64,000 nucleotides of DNA from an uncultured Acetobacteraceae bacterium (GCA_964250925.1 CAXUHU010000003.1:25327-89326); one strand, 5' to 3'. Counted from the first letter of the stretch, positions 13,978 to 19,612 are shown. Notes: a model not told the origin generated them from the letters alone. Translations and numbers: made by a program.

Positions 13978-14278
13978 CTACGGAGCCGGTAAAGGTAGGA
14001 GTAGGTCGTCGGACACGATCGCTGCAGGGCGGTGATGCCCGCATCACAAATTGTCCCAGATACGCGCGATAACCCTCGATAGGCCTTTCGTGACACCGAA
14101 GATCATCCGCTCGTTCCGCGACGGCCTGGTCATGGCATCCCCAGTAATGACCCCCGACGGCGACGTATCACGATCTCGATCCGCGGAACAACGGACGATC
14201 GACGGTGCTCGTGGACGATGGATCAGTACACCGATATCGGGTATGTTCGGCCGCGACAACCCACTAACGCCAGTCTTC

Positions 14279-14396
14279 ACTAGCCGACTTCATTGTTCAA
14301 CCGTCTATACGGCTCAGTCCTTGAAGTAGCCAACTTTTGATTATGAAAATAAGCAACTCCGCCGACCTGACTAACAGACTTTATTAGTCCGGAACA
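14279..14396 (-). repeat. glmS-distal transposon end with widely spaced TnsB-type sites
   Basis: Minus strand reads TGTTCCGGACTAATAAAGTC, CAAAAGTTGGCTA (14327-14339) and ACAATGAAGTCGGCTAGT (14279-14296; 16/18 identical to 4357-4374). Confidence 0.85.
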
Positions 14397-14531
14397 ACTT
14401 CGATGCGCCGGCACTCTCCACAATGGGAATCGGCCGGCGGGCATCGCACCCGTTCGGACGGCCGTGCAATGGCTCCGTGCTTGCCAGCCTTGCCGATTGC
14501 TGAAATATGACCTGGGCTGGCCTGGGGCGAC

Positions 14532-14927
14532 GTGGTTCGAGCACTCAAGACCCGGCTAGGCGGCGGCTTGCTCAAGTTCCTGCTGGTCGTGCTGGCGCTC
14601 GCCTGTCAGATCGGCGCGGTAACGTCAGCGGTCTCGGTCTATCCGCATAACGACGACGCCTCCTTGGCGGCCGTCTCCCTTCTGTGTCAGGGCGCTGCTC
14701 ACCCAGACGGTCGTGACGCGCCATCGGGGCACCGGCATGTGCCTCGCCAGGCCGTCATCGGTGTTGCCCAGGCAGACGCCTGCTCGGCGGCCGTTCTGCG
14801 CCCTGGCGCTGCTTTGCCGGAGCCTGCTCGGGCAAACATTGGCGAAGCCAGGCACCCCGAGGCGCGCGCCCCCCCTGTCCGCGCGGTCGCGTCGTTCTAC
14901 CCGCGAGGCCCGCCCAGCCCTGTCTGA
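14532..14927 (+). CDS. DUF2946-like leader protein with RAPP and RGPP motifs (candidate arrest peptide)
   Basis: Hydrophobic N-terminus, Cys/His-containing middle, EARAPP (14865-14876) and PRGPP (14904-14915) near the C-terminus; first gene of the Cu operon. Confidence 0.65.
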   Translation: MVRALKTRLGGGLLKFLLVVLALACQIGAVTSAVSVYPHNDDASLAAVSLLCQGAAHPDGRDAPSGHRHVPRQAVIGVAQADACSAAVLRPGAALPEPARANIGEARHPEARAPPVRAVASFYPRGPPSPV

Positions 14928-14995
14928 CAGCTGATCCTTTGCCCGCGGCAGATCGCACGCTGCCGCCCATGATCACGTTTGCCGGACAGGTTTCC

Positions 14996-15961
14996 ATGCA
15001 TCGAACATCACCAACCGTGCTTGCATGTGCAGGCGCCTACCTTTTCAGCGCATCCCCCACCCTGGCCCATGCCGTCTGCGGCGCACGGGTCTATCCTGTG
15101 ACCTTGACGATGGATGACCCGGGCGTCGCCGACGAGGCCACGATCCCGCAGATCGTCTATACCCGCAGCGCCGCCGCCGGCGGCCCGGGTCCCGGGCACG
15201 ACACCAGCGTGCAGTTCGAATACGACAAGCGGCTGACTGACGCGATCGGCTTCGCATTCAACGATGGCTACGCCGTCGATCAGACCAACAACGCCAAGAC
15301 GCAGGCCGGCTGGGACGACCTGACCGTCACCGCCAAATGGGCCAGGTGCGTCAACCCCGACGCCAGCTTCCAGCTCGCCGTCGGAGTCATCCGCGAGTTC
15401 GGCCGCACAGGCACCTCGCATGTCGGGTCCGACGAGTACGGCGACACGGCACCCACAATCTACCTAGGGAAGGGGCTCGACGATGCTGTGGTGCCGATTT
15501 TACAACCGCTTCAGTTCTCGGGCGAGCTCAGCTACGCGGTCACCGACAAGGCGATCAAAACCTACACGACTCTGGACCCCATCTCGGGTCTCTCATCGGC
15601 CCGCACGAACAATGGCGGTGCCAACCGGTGGATCGGCTCGTTCTCTGTTCAGTACTCGATCCCATACCTGCAAAATCAGGTGGAGGATTTCGGCCTGCCC
15701 GAACCGGTTTCCCACCTGATCCCCATTGCGGAGTTCAACTGGACGTCGCCCACGGTTTCGGGCGGCAACGGACCGACCACGTGGACGATGGCGCCTGGAT
15801 TTATCTACCTGCGCAGCTGGTATCAGGTCGGCGTAGAGGCGCTCGTTCCGCTCGATAAAGGCGCGGGCACGAATGTCGGCGTCATCGTTCAGCTGCACGT
15901 CTTCCTCGACGACCTGTATCCGCACGGCGTCGGCGCTCCGATCCTAGACCTTCTGAAATGA
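14996..15961 (+). CDS. Exported, probable outer-membrane beta-barrel protein (candidate metal uptake)
   Basis: Signal peptide ending TLA-HAVCG, alternating amphipathic strands with aromatics; directly upstream of copC. Confidence 0.6.
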   Translation: MHRTSPTVLACAGAYLFSASPTLAHAVCGARVYPVTLTMDDPGVADEATIPQIVYTRSAAAGGPGPGHDTSVQFEYDKRLTDAIGFAFNDGYAVDQTNNAKTQAGWDDLTVTAKWARCVNPDASFQLAVGVIREFGRTGTSHVGSDEYGDTAPTIYLGKGLDDAVVPILQPLQFSGELSYAVTDKAIKTYTTLDPISGLSSARTNNGGANRWIGSFSVQYSIPYLQNQVEDFGLPEPVSHLIPIAEFNWTSPTVSGGNGPTTWTMAPGFIYLRSWYQVGVEALVPLDKGAGTNVGVIVQLHVFLDDLYPHGVGAPILDLLK

Positions 15962-16017
15962 CGACGTCATCCGGCCTGCCGCTCCGGCACTGTGTCATTT
16001 CCTCAGGGGAGGAACCC

Positions 16018-16374
16018 ATGCTTCGCACCATCGCCGCCGCTGCCGCCTGCCTGCTTCTGCCGATGCCCGTCTGCGCGCACGCTTTTCTGGACGGCGCCAC
16101 CCCGCGTGTGGGCAGCAACAACCCGACCGCCCCGACCGAAGTGGTGCTGCATTTCACGCAGAGTGTCGAACCCGATTTCTCCACGATCAAGGTGACGAAC
16201 GCCGCGGGCGCAATGGTGACGGACGGCGTCCCCCACACAAAGCCGGGCGACGCCACACGCTTGGCGGTGCGGCTTACGACGATCGGCGCGGGCCAGTACA
16301 CCGTCGTCTGGCATGTGACGTCGGTGGACACGCACAAGACGCAGGGCAAGTTCCACTTCAGCGTGACGCCTTAG
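16018..16374 (+). CDS. copC: Copper resistance protein CopC
   Basis: Signal peptide then HAFL (His1), W-H-VTSVDTHKTQG Cu(II) site. Confidence 0.9.
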   Translation: MLRTIAAAAACLLLPMPVCAHAFLDGATPRVGSNNPTAPTEVVLHFTQSVEPDFSTIKVTNAAGAMVTDGVPHTKPGDATRLAVRLTTIGAGQYTVVWHVTSVDTHKTQGKFHFSVTP

Positions 16375-16376
16375 CC

Positions 16377-18311
16377 ATGCTGCCGTTCGATCTTCAGGGC
16401 GGGTTGCCGCTCTCGGCCGCGCGCGCCCTGATGGTCGGCGCGGTGCTCTCCACCTTTGGAGCATTGGTCTTCCGGGTCTTGGTCGCGCCCAGGGCCTGTG
16501 CGCCCATGACGCCGGAGGCGGTGCGCGTCGGCAAGCAGCGCCTGCTCGTCGTCTCGCAGGTCAGCGCCCTGGCCGGGCTACTCGCAGCCATTCTGTGGCT
16601 ATACCTGCAAGCGGCAGACATGGCCGATGCGGAAGGCGCCGCCCGGGTCCTGGCAGCCCTTATCCCTGTCCTGACCCGCACCCTATTCGGACACGTTCTC
16701 GGCGCGCAGTTCGCCGCACTTCTCGCCGCCTCGGCGCTGATCGGCGTGGTCGATGTGGCTTGGCGCCAAAGAGCTGCCTTGGGCATGACGACCCTCGCCG
16801 TCGCCTTGCAGGCGGGCCACAGCCACGCCTACGCGATGTATGGCGGGGCAAGCGTGTTGCTGGGCTGCGACGTCGTGCACCTTCTGGCTGCAGGGGCCTG
16901 GCTGGGCGGCCTGGTGCCGCTGCTGCTCTGGGTGCGGTGTGCGCCGCCCAAGACGGGTGCCAGTGCCGCGCGCCGGTTCTCGCCCCTCGGTCAAGGGTGC
17001 ATCGCCGCACTGGTCCTGTCGGCGACCGTCCAAGGCTGGATACTCGTCGGAACCGTTCCCGGACTGGTCGGCACCGCCTATGGCTGGATGGTGCTCGTCA
17101 AGATCGGCCTGTTCGCGGTGCTGCTGGGCTTTGCAGCCGCCAACCGCTACCGCTTTGCACCAGCGTTGCTGCACGACAGGCCCGTTACGGCGAAGACGGT
17201 GCTGGTGCGCAGCATCGCTCTTCAGACAGGGTTCGCAATCGCCATCGTCGCTGCCGCCAGCGTGCTGAGCGCGCTGCCGCCCGCCATGCACGAACAGCCG
17301 GCCTGGCCTTTCCCCGAACGCTTCAGCTTGGCCGCCGTAAACGAGGATCCCGACTTCCTGCGCGAAGTGGTGCAGGCGGGCGTGCTGCTCGCTGGCGCCG
17401 GGCTGGTTTTGACATTGTGCGTGAGCGCGCGCCGCTTCCGGCTGACGGCTTGCGCCCTGGCGGCTGTTTCCGTTTGGTTCGAGCTGCCGCATCTCGACCT
17501 GCTGCTCGTGACCGCCTACCCCACCAGCTTCTATCGTTCGCCCACGGGCTTCGCAGCCGCCGCCATCGTGAGCGGGCAATCAGTCTATGCAGCGCATTGT
17601 GTCGTCTGCCACGGCAGGGAGGGGCGTGGCGACGGAGTTGCGGCCAAGACCTTGCCGGTGCCGGCAGCCGACCTGACAGCGCCGCACCTCTGGATGCATA
17701 GCGATGGAGAGCTGTTCTGGTGGCTTGCCCACGGCATACTGACACCGGGGGGCGTGCAGGCGATGCCCGGCTTGGCCACGGTGCTGGATGACGACCAGCG
17801 TTGGGCGGCCATCGACTTCATCCGGGCACGCAACGCCGGCGGCACCCTGCGTGCGACAGGGGGGTGGACGCCGCCGCTCTTGGCGCCCGGGTTCGACCTG
17901 AGTTGCGGCACGACCTACATCGCGCTGTCCGGGCTGCGGGGGCGGTTCGTGCTGTTGCGATTCAGTCAGGCGCCACTCAGCCAAGTGGGGTTCGGCCACG
18001 AGCCGGATCGGCCCCGCATCGGCACCGCGGTCAGCATCCTGGCCATGCCTGCCGGGCAGGCTGCACCGCCCGACGACTGCGTAAGCACCGACGAGACCGT
18101 GGCGCCTGCCTACGCCATCGTGTCGGGCGTGGACGTGGCAAGCTTGCCCGGGACGGAGTTCCTGATCGATGAGCGGGGCTGGCTGCGTGCTGTGCACCGG
18201 GCGGGGACAGCACCCCTGTGGAGCGCTGCGGCGTTGCAGGCGGAAATCCGCTTGTTGCGCGCGCATCCCGTGGCTGACGCTGCCGTAGCGCCGATGAAGA
18301 TGCCGATGTGA
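16377..18311 (+). CDS. CopD-family membrane protein fused to cytochrome c and a degenerate thioredoxin-like domain
   Basis: GHSHA, HLLAAGAWLGGL, LVKIGLF..N RY CopD motifs; CVVCHG heme site; C-terminal FLIDERGWLR. Confidence 0.85.
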   Translation: MLPFDLQGGLPLSAARALMVGAVLSTFGALVFRVLVAPRACAPMTPEAVRVGKQRLLVVSQVSALAGLLAAILWLYLQAADMADAEGAARVLAALIPVLTRTLFGHVLGAQFAALLAASALIGVVDVAWRQRAALGMTTLAVALQAGHSHAYAMYGGASVLLGCDVVHLLAAGAWLGGLVPLLLWVRCAPPKTGASAARRFSPLGQGCIAALVLSATVQGWILVGTVPGLVGTAYGWMVLVKIGLFAVLLGFAAANRYRFAPALLHDRPVTAKTVLVRSIALQTGFAIAIVAAASVLSALPPAMHEQPAWPFPERFSLAAVNEDPDFLREVVQAGVLLAGAGLVLTLCVSARRFRLTACALAAVSVWFELPHLDLLLVTAYPTSFYRSPTGFAAAAIVSGQSVYAAHCVVCHGREGRGDGVAAKTLPVPAADLTAPHLWMHSDGELFWWLAHGILTPGGVQAMPGLATVLDDDQRWAAIDFIRARNAGGTLRATGGWTPPLLAPGFDLSCGTTYIALSGLRGRFVLLRFSQAPLSQVGFGHEPDRPRIGTAVSILAMPAGQAAPPDDCVSTDETVAPAYAIVSGVDVASLPGTEFLIDERGWLRAVHRAGTAPLWSAAALQAEIRLLRAHPVADAAVAPMKMPM

Positions 18312-18324
18312 TGGGTGGTTGGCG

Positions 18325-18948
18325 ATGAAGACGAGACGGGCGGTCCGCCGGCGGGAGCGCGATCGCAAAGCCTTCACACGCGCCTGGTTCGGCGTAGCGG
18401 CCATTCTGCTCCTAGCCGGCACGTTCTGGCTGACGGTTCCGGGCCAACGGAAGCAGGGTGGCATCGGCGGACCGTTCACGCTGATGGCCGATGACGGCTA
18501 CCTCCGAACGGAACGAAGCTTCCCCGGGAAGTACCTTGCCGTCTATTTCGGCTACACACACTGCCAGGATGTTTGTCCCGCGACGCTCAACACGCTGGCG
18601 GCCGCACTGGCGCGATTGGGCGGCGCGGCCGAACGCGTGCAACCACTGTTCATCACCGTCGATCCGTCGCGCGACTCGCCTGCGGTGCTGCGCCGTTTCG
18701 TCGCGGGCTTTGCACCCAACCTGATGGGACTGACCGGAACGCCGGACCAGTTGGCCAAGGTCGAGCGAGGGTATCGCGTGGTGAGTGTTCCGCATGTCGG
18801 AGCTGCGCCGGCCAGCTACGTGGTGGACCACAGTTCGGTAATCTACCTGATCGACCCTGACGGCGCCTTTGTCGCACCGATACCGGCCGATGCCTCCGAA
18901 ATGGTGATGGCGCAAGCGATCGCGCGCTACGTCAGGACGCCGTCTTGA
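18325..18948 (+). CDS. SCO1/SenC copper chaperone
   Basis: FGYTHCQDVCP (CxxxC), ITVDP, VDHSS. Confidence 0.92.
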   Translation: MKTRRAVRRRERDRKAFTRAWFGVAAILLLAGTFWLTVPGQRKQGGIGGPFTLMADDGYLRTERSFPGKYLAVYFGYTHCQDVCPATLNTLAAALARLGGAAERVQPLFITVDPSRDSPAVLRRFVAGFAPNLMGLTGTPDQLAKVERGYRVVSVPHVGAAPASYVVDHSSVIYLIDPDGAFVAPIPADASEMVMAQAIARYVRTPS

Positions 18949-19612
18949 TGGGTGCAGAAGTTCGTTTCGTCGGATGCGGACACGTATCTTGCGACGTCGC
19001 CAGCGCTGCGGCCACGAAAGCCGAGATGCGCGACGCGTCTTTCACGCCGGGCGCCGTCTCGACGCCGGACGAGACGTCAACGGCCTGGGCGCCGCTGCGG
19101 GCAATCGCTTCAGCAACGTTCTCGGGGGTAAGCCCGCCGGCGAGCATCCAGGGGATGCCCGGGCTCCAGCCGCGCAGCATGGACCAGTCCAGCTTCAAGG
19201 CGAGGCCGCCGGGCCTAGCCGAGCCGGCGGGCGGTTTCGGCTCGATCACCAGCGCCGCAGCGCCGGCAGGCGGCTGGGGCAGGTCGGCTGGCGAGGCGAC
19301 GCCCGCGCTCTGCCAGACGGAAACGCCGAACCTGCGCCGTATCTCGTCCAGCCTGTGGGTTGGTGCATAGAGTTGCAACGCATCGAGCGGCAACGCGGCA
19401 AGAGTCGCGGCCACCTCGTCGTTGCTTGGATTGACGAACAGGCCGACCCTGGCCGGCCCGCCGCTGTGCCGGCCCGATAGCCGGGCTGCCGTGGTGGGGG
19501 TGACGTGGCGCGGGGACCGGGCGAAGAATACGAAGCCGGTCCAGTCTGCGCCGGCTTCTGCCGCTGCGTCGAATGCCTGGGGGCTGTTGATGCCGCAAAT
19601 TTTTATTCGCAC
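18932..19612 (-). CDS. trpF: Phosphoribosylanthranilate isomerase
   Basis: IKICGI, GFVF, LAGGLTPENV, VDVSSGVE. Confidence 0.93.
   Translation of the reverse strand: MRIKICGINSPQAFDAAAEAGADWTGFVFFARSPRHVTPTTAARLSGRHSGGPARVGLFVNPSNDEVAATLAALPLDALQLYAPTHRLDEIRRRFGVSVWQSAGVASPADLPQPPAGAAALVIEPKPPAGSARPGGLALKLDWSMLRGWSPGIPWMLAGGLTPENVAEAIARSGAQAVDVSSGVETAPGVKDASRISAFVAAALATSQDTCPHPTKRTSAPIKTAS

What the first reader, a model, noticed from the sequence alone, without database searches (positions are those of the whole stretch)
14996..18948. Five-gene copper pipeline: unknown OM barrel, CopC, CopD-cytochrome c-thioredoxin-like fusion, SCO
Seen: an uncharacterised exported protein whose predicted mature N-terminus starts His-Ala-Val-Cys; a CopC without the Met-rich Cu(I) site; a 644-aa CopD fused to a CxxCH heme domain and a Cys-less redoxin-like tail; and SCO. 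Known: CopCD can mediate Cu uptake and SCO loads Cu into oxidases. Inference: an outer-membrane-to-enzyme Cu acquisition route with a built-in heme redox step; the barrel may be an undescribed Cu porin.
Basis: partly seen in the sequence, partly recalled or inferred. Interest (0 to 1): 0.55.

Follow-up and report, generated by a model that had tools for sequence, protein, structure and literature searches.

The report
Copper-uptake operon with unnamed outer-membrane barrel
This is a real five-gene operon that most likely takes in copper and passes it to respiratory enzymes; its first large gene encodes a small outer-membrane channel of an unnamed protein family that almost always sits in front of the copper genes copC and copD, and nobody has yet tested whether it moves copper.

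Summary
The fifth gene lies outside the given coordinates. It is a 131-aa leader ORF (14532-14927) of the DUF2946/CruR/CutF copper-sensing ribosome-arrest type, carrying RAPP and RGPP motifs. Its last codons pair with the ribosome-binding site of the next gene.

- **Barrel (14996-15961):** the AlphaFold model is a 12-stranded outer-membrane barrel. It is closest to FapF and the COG4313 channel Pput2725 (Z about 22). It has no Pfam, NCBIfam or PDB sequence match.
- **Family:** about 2000 clusters at 50% identity. CopC follows the barrel in 75 of 77 related loci and in 10 of 11 distant loci. The first mature residue is His in 173 of 181 members.
- **CopC:** Cu(II)-only type.
- **CopD:** it has ten predicted membrane helices and is fused to a periplasmic monoheme cytochrome c and a thioredoxin-fold domain. 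That domain is not Cys-less. It lacks the CxxC motif but keeps two conserved Cys and a C-terminal MxMxM.
- **Sco:** intact.

The best reading is copper acquisition for cuproenzyme assembly, with the barrel as the outer-membrane entry step. All function is inferred.

The scan has noted the same module in other genomes.

The parts
14532..14927 (+). Leader ORF (131 aa) of the DUF2946/CruR/CutF type. It has an N-terminal hydrophobic export segment, RAPP at residues 112-115 (14865-14876) and RGPP at residues 125-128 (14904-14915), three residues before the stop. The family's CxxC motif is replaced here (PRQAVIGV where relatives have PDCALCPL). Cys52 and His67/His69 are kept.
   Evidence: Translation. 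The ORF is conserved upstream of the barrel in related loci. Orthologous leaders hit PF11162 (L015 35.7 bits, L070 37.1 bits), but the window copy itself does not. Motif census. Mechanism papers: PMC9426467 and PMC9973294.
14919..14990 (+). RNA hairpin. Its 5' arm (14919-14926, CCUGUCUG) is the last codons and stop of the leader. Its 3' arm (14983-14990, CGGACAGG) covers the Shine-Dalgarno region of the barrel gene, and a G+C-rich inner stem lies between them.
   Evidence: Minimum-free-energy fold (z -1.2 alone, not significant). Across 70 loci the native arm pairs are stronger than cross-locus pairs (mean -13.9 versus -10.7 kcal/mol; 0 of 2000 permutations reach this), and the arms change together, for example CUCUCGC/GCGAGAG in L053.
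14996..15961 (+). 321-aa outer-membrane 12-stranded beta-barrel of an unnamed family. It has a 24-residue signal peptide. The mature N-terminus is His25, followed by a conserved roughly 22-residue segment (H..G.R.FP.TL..DDP.V.DE) that precedes strand 1.
   Evidence: 596 homologs, all 'hypothetical'; pLDDT 81.6; FapF Z 22.0; 4rl8 Z 21.7, rmsd 2.8 over 228; 2001 cluster representatives at E<=1e-3.
15958..16374 (+). CopC, a periplasmic copper-binding protein of the Cu(II)-only type. The more likely start is the Met at 16018, which gives a signal peptide ending VCA before His.
   Evidence: PF04234 at 76.7 bits. NCBIfam copper_CopC at 84.3 bits, below the equivalog cut-off of 95. Sequence.
16377..17510 (+). 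CopD membrane domain: eight helices of the CopD core plus two extra helices (about residues 328-378). By the positive-inside rule these extra helices place the C-terminal domains in the periplasm.
   Evidence: PF05425 at 71.7 bits. NCBIfam copper_CopD at 143.9 bits, residues 13-302, cut-off 195. Hydropathy and loop charges.
17559..17846 (+). Monoheme class I cytochrome c domain. CxxCH lies at residues 408-412 (17598-17612) and the invariant distal Met is Met463. There is also an invariant His437 and near-invariant Met440/His441 (HLWMH).
   Evidence: PF13442 at 37.5 bits and PF00034 at 30.8 bits. Alignment A2. Model pLDDT 89.6. ACIII ActE 6loe_E Z 14.8 and cytochrome c552 9vr0 Z 14.6.
17859..18308 (+). 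Thioredoxin-fold domain without the canonical CxxC. It has two near-invariant Cys (C510, C568) and a conserved C-terminal MxMxM (MKMPM, 18294-18308).
   Evidence: No Pfam hit. Alignment A2. Fold matches: Etrx2 4hqz Z 11.3, Bcp1 3drn Z 10.9, Sco 4hde Z 8.8, and peroxiredoxins by Foldseek at E about 1e-5. hhalign against the operon's Sco alignment gives probability 2%.
18319..18948 (+). Membrane-anchored Sco/SenC copper chaperone with CxxxC and His intact. The likely start is the ATG at 18325. Its 3' end overlaps the convergent trpF gene.
   Evidence: PF02630 at 149.6 bits. C80, C84 and H169 are invariant in alignment A6. trpF (PF00697) on the minus strand at 18932-19612.

Best explanation
This is a copper-acquisition and delivery operon.

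**Shown by sequence, fold and comparative genomics**
1. The operon is headed by a leader peptide of the DUF2946/CruR/CutF class. It has an export signal and tandem RAPP and RGPP arrest motifs at its C-terminus.
2. The leader's last codons base-pair with the ribosome-binding site of the next gene.
3. The following genes encode a 12-stranded outer-membrane barrel, a Cu(II)-type CopC, a CopD fusion and a Sco chaperone.
4. The CopD fusion displays a monoheme cytochrome c and a thioredoxin-fold domain in the periplasm. The thioredoxin-fold domain carries two conserved Cys and a Met-rich end.

**Inferred mechanism**
- A ribosome paused at the arrest motif melts the hairpin and allows translation of the barrel gene. 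Metal sensed by the exported nascent leader changes the length of that pause.
- The barrel lets ionic copper cross the outer membrane without TonB. Its conserved acidic N-terminal segment probably lies in the lumen, as in COG4313 channels, and its N-terminal His may serve as a copper ligand.
- CopC captures Cu(II) through its own His1 site and presents it to CopD.
- The fused cytochrome c changes the copper oxidation state, most simply Cu(II) to Cu(I).
- The Cys pair and Met tail, or Sco, take the Cu(I) either for import through CopD or for direct loading of CuA-type centres.
- The genome also has a separate PCuAC-Sco pair and a second plain copCD pair. This operon therefore looks like a conditional, high-affinity route.
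For: **Leader**
- Orthologous leaders are PF11162 members.
- CruR and CutF are shown experimentally to be copper-sensing arrest peptides that head copper operons containing CopC, Sco and PCuAC (PMC9426467, PMC9973294).
- The hairpin between the leader's end and the Shine-Dalgarno region is locus-specific in 70 loci.

**Barrel**
- Pput2725 has a lumen-inserted N-terminus (PMC4493636).
- The barrel-copC-copD order holds in 75 of 77 close loci and 10 of 11 distant loci, mostly behind an arrest leader.
- His1 is present in 173 of 181 family members.

**CopCD as importer supporting oxidases**
- B. subtilis YcnJ requires CopC His and a CopD His. Its C-terminal extracytoplasmic YtkA domain helps CuA assembly (PMC13344008).
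- The E. coli AZY operon points the same way (PMC8689200).

**Fusion**
- Topology is, conserved ligands, and folds.
- At least 788 database proteins share the cytochrome c plus tail module, nearly all on CopD.

**Operon and genome content**
- The operon has no multicopper oxidase, no CopB and no P-type ATPase.
- The genome has no CopB. It has two COX2 hits, one of them full-length, and a separate PCuAC-Sco pair.
Against: - No experiment bears on any step.
- The window's own leader has lost the CxxC motif that CruR needs for its copper response, so copper control in this genome is uncertain.
- CutF-type leaders switch genes ON with copper, for detoxification. The direction of control therefore cannot be read from sequence.
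- copCD also occurs in classical resistance operons.
- COG4313 channels are thought to carry hydrophobic molecules, not ions.
- His1 lies in a low-confidence part of the model (pLDDT below 50 up to residue 26). I could not inspect coordinates, so no copper site is located.
- Sco follows in only 29 of 58 loci, and the cytochrome c domain is missing in about a quarter. Neither is essential to the core module.
- The hairpin in the window alone is not more stable than shuffled sequence (z -1.2).
Confidence: 0.62

Rival explanations
1. This is a copper-tolerance (Cop-like) operon. The barrel would play the CopB/PcoB role, releasing or buffering periplasmic copper. CopC would sequester Cu(II). The fused cytochrome c would oxidise toxic Cu(I) in place of the missing multicopper oxidase. 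The leader would switch the operon on when copper rises, as CutF does.
For: The gene order (outer-membrane protein, copC, copD) mirrors copB-copC-copD. PcoB is also a small barrel (7pge, Z 12.3), and its direction of transport is itself disputed (PMC9210255 versus PMC12509749). CutF-type leaders activate detoxification genes.
Against: - The barrel has no sequence relation to CopB (no Pfam hit; hhalign probability 12%).
- The operon has no multicopper oxidase or efflux pump.
- Sco is a cuproenzyme-assembly chaperone.
- CopC here is the Cu(II)-only type that partners importers such as YcnJ.
- DUF2946 leaders with CopC, Sco or PCuAC neighbours were grouped with acquisition systems.
Confidence: 0.2
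2. The operon does handle copper, but the barrel does not conduct free copper ions. It might import a small copper chelate or hydrophobic ligand, as COG4313/FadL-type channels do. Alternatively it might serve as an outer-membrane docking site for CopC.
For: The closest solved folds are FapF and a COG4313 channel. The COG4313 channel is occluded by its N-terminus and poorly permeable to hydrophilic solutes. The protein-language-model search puts a PF13557-bearing cluster nearest among named clusters (score 0.95).
Against: - The barrel is not a PF13557 member (hhalign probability 2%; the genome's own PF13557 genes lie elsewhere).
- No chelator-synthesis genes lie next to it in the window.
- The conserved acidic N-terminal segment and His1 fit a cation better than a hydrophobic cargo.
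Confidence: 0.13
3. The module serves a metal other than copper (for example Ni, Co or Zn) in this lineage, because its leader has lost the Cys motif and keeps only His.
For: His-only CutF-like leaders sit next to Ni/Co transporter genes. One distant barrel homolog (L104) lies between what look like cation-diffusion-facilitator genes and has no copC (judged by eye only).
Against: CopC, CopD and Sco are all copper-specific families, and all keep their copper ligands here. Orthologous leaders in sister loci keep CxxC at the canonical spacing.
Confidence: 0.05

Closest known systems
CruR (Bordetella pertussis Bp2923, DUF2946/PF11162) and CutF (Rhodobacter capsulatus): copper-sensing arrest-peptide leaders
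   Same: It is a small exported ORF, first in a copper operon, with a C-terminal R-A/G-P-P arrest motif three residues before the stop. A downstream RNA structure involves the next gene's ribosome-binding site, as with CutF. Orthologs hit PF11162 and carry CxxC 45-52 residues before the arrest motif.
   Different: The window copy has no CxxC and is not itself recognised by PF11162. It has two arrest-like motifs in tandem (RAPP then RGPP). The gap to the next gene is 68 nt, against 162 nt in Bordetella. The regulated gene is a 12-stranded barrel, not a TonB-dependent transporter or a multicopper oxidase.
COG4313 / PF13557 outer-membrane channels (Pput2725, PDB 4rl8) and FapF (5o65)
   Same: It is a monomeric 12-stranded barrel of about 300 residues with a segment before strand 1. 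In Pput2725 that segment folds into the lumen (Z 21.7 to 22.0).
   Different: There is no detectable sequence relation (no Pfam hit; hhalign probability 2%). The conserved motifs differ (N-terminal His and an acidic DDP..DE segment). The genomic partners are copper genes, not aromatic-degradation or amyloid genes.
CopB/PcoB of copABCD/pcoABCD (PF05275, PDB 7pge)
   Same: It is a small outer-membrane barrel encoded immediately upstream of copC-copD. It is proposed to let copper cross the outer membrane (PMC9210255).
   Different: It is unrelated in sequence (hhalign probability 12%) and a weaker fold match (Z 12.3). It has no His/Met-rich disordered N-terminal region and no partner multicopper oxidase. 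It sits under an arrest leader, with no two-component regulator next to the operon in the window.
Bacillus subtilis YcnJ (CopC-CopD-YtkA) and E. coli YobA-YebZ-YebY
   Same: CopC plus CopD act as a copper importer that supports respiratory oxidases at low copper. CopD carries an extracytoplasmic C-terminal copper-handling domain (PMC13344008).
   Different: Here the C-terminal module is a heme cytochrome c plus a thioredoxin-fold domain, not YtkA. CopC is a separate protein. The organism is diderm and has a dedicated outer-membrane component.
Bradyrhizobium pcuABCDE copper-starvation operon
   Same: It is a single operon joining an outer-membrane uptake protein, periplasmic copper chaperones and an inner-membrane protein for oxidase biogenesis (as summarised in 10.1101/2025.09.05.674415 and PMC6669012).
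   Different: PcuB is described there as a TonB-dependent receptor, not a 12-stranded barrel, and the chaperone is PCuAC-type PcuC. I could not read the original paper.

Membership tests
DUF2946 / CruR (PF11162) | Match to the family profile | tested here: not met
   The window ORF has no PF11162 hit even at E<=10. Positional orthologs do hit: L015 35.7 bits, L070 37.1 bits, L024 27.4 bits, cut-off 23.7. tblastn links the window ORF to them at 33-44% identity.
DUF2946 / CruR (PF11162) | Conserved CXXC copper-binding motif about 45 residues before the arrest motif | tested here: not met
   The window has PRQAVIGV at that place. 22 of 70 orthologous leaders have CxxC at 45-52 residues, and 48 of 70 lack it.
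DUF2946 / CruR (PF11162) | C-terminal RAPP-type arrest motif about 3 residues before the end; N-terminal export signal; first gene of a copper operon | tested here: met
   RGPP lies at residues 125-128 of 131, with RAPP at 112-115. The hydrophobic segment spans about residues 12-30. The ORF lies 68 nt upstream of the barrel-copC-copD-sco genes.
COG4313 / Phenol_MetA_deg (PF13557) | [quoted passage not shown] | tested here: met
   VIA Z 21.7, rmsd 2.8 over 228 residues to 4rl8. The alignment starts at model residue 38, matched to chain residue 2.
COG4313 / Phenol_MetA_deg (PF13557) | Sequence membership (profile match) | tested here: not met
   No Pfam hit for the protein or for 10 distant relatives. 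The genome-wide PF13557 search hits two other genes but not this one. hhalign of A3 against a PF13557 alignment gives probability 2%.
CopB / PcoB (PF05275) | Sequence membership (profile match) | tested here: not met
   No Pfam hit. No PF05275 match anywhere in the genome. hhalign of A3 against a CopB alignment gives probability 12%. Fold similarity to 7pge is only Z 12.3.
CopC (PF04234), Cu(II)-only subtype | Profile match; mature N-terminal His and D-x-H Cu(II) ligands; absence of the Met-rich Cu(I) site | tested here: met
   76.7 bits against a cut-off of 23.3. The sequence shows ...VCA|HAF......VDTH..., and a single Met in the mature protein. The ligand assignment rests on published CopC structures recalled from memory, not on a structure here.
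CopD (PF05425) | Profile match over the polytopic core | tested here: met
   PF05425 at 71.7 bits (cut-off 32.1). The NCBIfam copper_CopD model covers residues 13-302 at 143.9 bits, below its equivalog cut-off of 195.
Class I c-type cytochrome (PF13442 / PF00034) | CxxCH heme-attachment motif, distal Met, periplasmic location | tested here: met
   CxxCH and Met463 are invariant in 35 sequences. Profile hits are 37.5 and 30.8 bits. Fold Z is 14.6-14.8. The periplasmic side is inferred from ten predicted helices and loop charges, not shown.
Thioredoxin-fold oxidoreductases (TlpA/ResA/Bcp/Sco-like) | Thioredoxin fold | tested here: met
   Z 11.3 (4hqz, rmsd 2.8 over 118), 10.9 (3drn), 10.4 (3or5) and 8.8 (Sco 4hde). 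Foldseek matches peroxiredoxins at E about 1e-5.
Thioredoxin-fold oxidoreductases (TlpA/ResA/Bcp/Sco-like) | Active-site CxxC (or CxxxC) after the central strand | tested here: not met
   No Cys follows the ...FVRLV... strand in any of 35 sequences. The conserved Cys lie elsewhere (C510, C568). No Pfam hit. hhalign against Sco gives probability 2%.
Sco1/SenC (PF02630) | Profile match; CxxxC plus distal His copper ligands; membrane anchor | tested here: met
   149.6 bits. C80, C84 and H169 are invariant in 12 operon-linked Sco sequences. The N-terminal hydrophobic segment is visible.

The most novel reading that the evidence does not exclude
The barrel founds an undescribed, widespread family of TonB-independent outer-membrane copper channels. 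Its processed N-terminal His, with the acidic lumen segment, binds Cu(II) and hands it to the matching His1 site of CopC. The cytochrome c fused to CopD is a built-in cupric reductase. It converts CopC-bound Cu(II) to Cu(I) for capture by the Cys pair and Met tail, and for import or Sco loading. Together these would form a complete, self-contained copper relay from outer membrane to inner membrane, with a defined redox step.
Probability: 0.25. Interest if true: 0.75.

Novelty: new variant of a known kind. Interest (0 to 1): 0.55.

Why it matters
How ionic copper crosses the outer membrane on its way to CopC/CopD is poorly defined. The review I read lists only general porins, TonB-dependent NosA/OprC and ComC (PMC7558416).

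A roughly 320-residue barrel family with about 2000 sequence clusters, almost always encoded directly in front of copC-copD, is a concrete and easily testable candidate for that step.

The CopD-cytochrome c-thioredoxin-fold fusion is present in hundreds of genomes and annotated only automatically. It offers a handle on an open question: which oxidation state of copper CopD handles, and whether reduction is coupled to transfer.

The leader adds natural variants of the CruR/CutF arrest system: two tandem arrest motifs, and loss of CxxC. These could show which residues actually sense the metal.

Tried and rejected
- I reconstructed gene neighbourhoods from the search for related loci, the genome search and the fetch from genomes, with tblastn in scripts.
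- **PDB sequence search:** a profile search of the PDB with the barrel family found nothing at E<=10.
- **Pfam and NCBIfam:** no hit for the barrel or for 10 distant relatives.
- **Profile-profile tests:** negative against PF13557 (2%), CopB (12%), and the tail against Sco (2%).
- **Rfam:** 14100-19100 gave only a sub-threshold chance hit.
- **Promoter scan:** no sigma-70-like promoter was found upstream.
- **PcuB idea:** A preprint describes PcuB as a TonB-dependent receptor, so I dropped the idea. The original paper is not held.
- **N-terminal-His paper:** the 'signal-strapping' paper on N-terminal-His metalloproteins mentions no barrel, porin or CopD.
- **Literature:** searches for COG4313 with copper and for CopD-cytochrome c fusions gave no description of these proteins.
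- **Model coordinates:** I could not inspect them, so I did not test the position of His1, of the lumen residues, or the distance between C510 and C568.

Full report
**What is there**

1. A 131-aa ORF at 14532-14927.
2. A 321-aa exported protein at 14996-15961.
3. CopC at 15958/16018-16374.
4. A 644-aa CopD fusion at 16377-18311.
5. Sco at 18319-18948.

The finding's coordinates hold four of these. The fifth, the leader, lies just upstream.

**The leader**

The window ORF has no Pfam hit of its own. However, an ORF in the same position is conserved in related loci, and several of those are bona fide DUF2946 members: L015 at 35.7 bits, L070 at 37.1 bits, L024 at 27.4 bits, against a cut-off of 23.7.

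DUF2946 includes Bordetella CruR. CruR is a copper-responsive upstream ORF that needs a CXXC motif and a C-terminal RAPP arrest motif three residues before its end (PMC9426467). The related CutF of Rhodobacter capsulatus controls the next gene through an RNA stem-loop that hides its ribosome-binding site (PMC9973294).

The window ORF has these features:
- an N-terminal hydrophobic segment;
- RAPP at residues 112-115;
- RGPP at residues 125-128 of 131.

It lacks CXXC. Where relatives read PDCALCPL, it reads PRQAVIGV. Of 70 orthologous leaders, 22 carry CxxC 45-52 residues before the terminal arrest motif and 48 do not. Most have two R-A/G-P-P motifs about ten residues apart.

**The hairpin**

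The last codons and the stop of the leader (14919-14926) pair with the Shine-Dalgarno region of the barrel gene (14983-14990). The window fold alone is not significant (z -1.2).

The arrangement recurs in nearly every locus, and the two arms change together. Native arm pairs average -13.9 kcal/mol against -10.7 for arms swapped between loci, and none of 2000 permutations reaches the native value.

A ribosome held at RGPP would cover the 5' arm and free the ribosome-binding site. That last step is inference from the geometry.

**The barrel**

The 14996 protein has a typical signal peptide, and its mature form starts with His.

*Sequence searches*
- It has 596 word-indexed homologs, all unnamed.
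- A profile finds 2001 cluster representatives at E<=1e-3 among 1.84 billion sequences.
- Neither it nor ten distant relatives hit any Pfam or NCBIfam model.
- The family profile finds no PDB sequence.

*Fold*
- The AlphaFold model (pLDDT 81.6) is built of beta-strands.
- Its best matches are the 12-stranded barrels FapF (Z 22.0, rmsd 3.5 over 232) and the COG4313 channel Pput2725 (Z 21.7, rmsd 2.8 over 228).
- PcoB is much lower, at Z 12.3.

*Family tests*
- Profile-profile tests reject membership of PF13557 (2%) and CopB (12%).
- The language-model atlas labels the nearest clusters 'putative transporter', and shows a PF13557-bearing cluster only as the nearest named neighbour.

*Conserved N-terminus*
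- The best-conserved part is the roughly 22 residues before strand 1 (H..G.R.FP.TL..DDP.V.DE).
- In Pput2725 the equivalent N-terminal residues fold into the lumen (PMC4493636).
- His is the first mature residue in 173 of 181 family members where the motif could be located. Cys4 is not conserved.

**Association with copper genes**

This is the strongest evidence. Counts below are for loci with enough sequence to judge.

| Feature, in 80 loci from other species (mostly Acetobacteraceae, many from lichen metagenomes) | Count |
|---|---|
| CopC follows the barrel | 75 of 77 |
| CopD follows | 65 of 70 |
| Cytochrome c domain present | 48 of 64 |
| Sco downstream | 29 of 58 |

In a sample of 400 genomes across the phylum, ten carry the family. 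In 10 of their 11 loci, at only 30-37% identity and very different G+C content, the barrel is again followed directly by copC, and by a CopD-sized ORF or CopD match where there is room to see it.

Most of those with upstream sequence to see are headed by an arrest-type leader ending in RAPP, RGPP or PFPVPPPR.

**The CopD fusion**

*Topology.* Hydropathy and loop charges give ten helices with the N-terminus outside. The cytochrome c and tail domains are therefore periplasmic, as heme attachment requires.

*Cytochrome c domain.* CxxCH (408-412) and Met463 are invariant. His437 is also invariant, and Met440 and His441 are nearly so.

*Tail.* The model (pLDDT 89.6) gives a class I cytochrome c (Z 14.6-14.8) followed by a thioredoxin fold. 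The thioredoxin fold is closest to membrane-tethered thioredoxins and Bcp peroxiredoxins (Z 10.4-11.3), and more distant from Sco (Z 8.8).
- It has no Cys at the canonical active site.
- Two Cys (C510, C568) are near-invariant.
- The protein ends in a conserved MxMxM.

*Distribution.* At least 788 database proteins share this C-terminal module, nearly all fused to CopD. They are auto-annotated as 'putative copper export protein / cytochrome c family protein'. Some relatives have a plain roughly 310-aa CopD.

**Genome context**

| Feature in the genome | Result |
|---|---|
| CopB | no match |
| PF13557 genes | two, elsewhere |
| COX2 | two hits |
| PCuAC-Sco pair | one, on another contig |
| Second copC-copD pair | one, plain, on contig 33 |

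The operon studied here is therefore an additional, specialised route.

**Interpretation**

Several points favour copper acquisition and delivery to cuproenzymes:
- CopC-CopD act as importers that support respiratory oxidases at low copper. In B. subtilis YcnJ, a C-terminal extracytoplasmic domain helps CuA assembly (PMC13344008).
- DUF2946 leaders head acquisition-type operons that include CopC, Sco and PCuAC.
- Sco is an assembly chaperone.
- The operon has no oxidase or efflux pump.

The barrel would be the outer-membrane entry step. The cytochrome c would be a redox step, most simply Cu(II) to Cu(I). The Cys pair, the Met tail and Sco would be the Cu(I) acceptors. All of this is inference.

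The main rival is a Cop-like tolerance system. I cannot exclude it from sequence, because CutF-type leaders turn genes on with copper and copB-copC-copD has the same gene order.

**Novelty**

I found no paper on the barrel family or on the fusion. The review of outer-membrane copper uptake lists only porins, NosA/OprC and ComC.

The scan itself has noted the same module in several other genomes. One follow-up (e1-5205445) reached the same reading of the barrel. I saw those notes only after my own tests.

The leader, CopC, CopD and Sco are all known kinds. The unnamed barrel family and the heme-thioredoxin-fold extension of CopD are new variants within a known type of system.

Noticed in passing
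L100, L101, L102, L105, L106 (distant loci from the genome search): The barrel-copC-copD module is headed here by a different leader type of 135-195 aa. It ends ...LKPRLLPFPVPPPR plus 2 residues and carries a CPxCH motif. Where the locus extends far enough (L100, L101, L106), a second copy of that leader precedes a roughly 400-aa exported protein with an N-terminal YLGLCCAKCGGNMP motif and a roughly 188-aa redoxin-like protein.
   Followed up: no
L104 (G283:C9): This barrel homolog has no copC next to it. It sits between two genes that look like cation-diffusion-facilitator transporters (judged by eye only). This hints that some family members serve other metals.
   Followed up: no
window 14532-14927 and 70 orthologous leaders: Most leaders carry two R-A/G-P-P arrest-like motifs about ten residues apart. 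Two thirds have lost one or both Cys of the CxxC that CruR needs. The window clade keeps only an upstream Cys and an HxH stretch.
   Followed up: partly
window 17685-17699 (residues 437-441 of the CopD fusion): An HLWMH stretch in the cytochrome c domain has an invariant first His and a near-invariant Met and second His. These are additional to the heme ligands and could form a metal site next to the heme.
   Followed up: no
own genome, contig 33 (L123:6525-8641, minus strand): A second copC (159 aa) and copD (546 aa, extra membrane region, no cytochrome c) pair lies here, with no barrel or arrest-leader match from this operon's proteins on the contig. In several relatives a similar pair lies divergently just upstream of the operon.
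   Followed up: partly
The operon's promoter must therefore lie in the roughly 130 nt between the island end and 14532. No sigma-70-like promoter was found there.
   Followed up: no
L039 and L053 (same contig, CBDAQG010000002.1): One Acetobacteraceae genome carries two copies of the barrel-copC module about 0.9 Mb apart. Only one copy has the CopD fusion and Sco.
   Followed up: no
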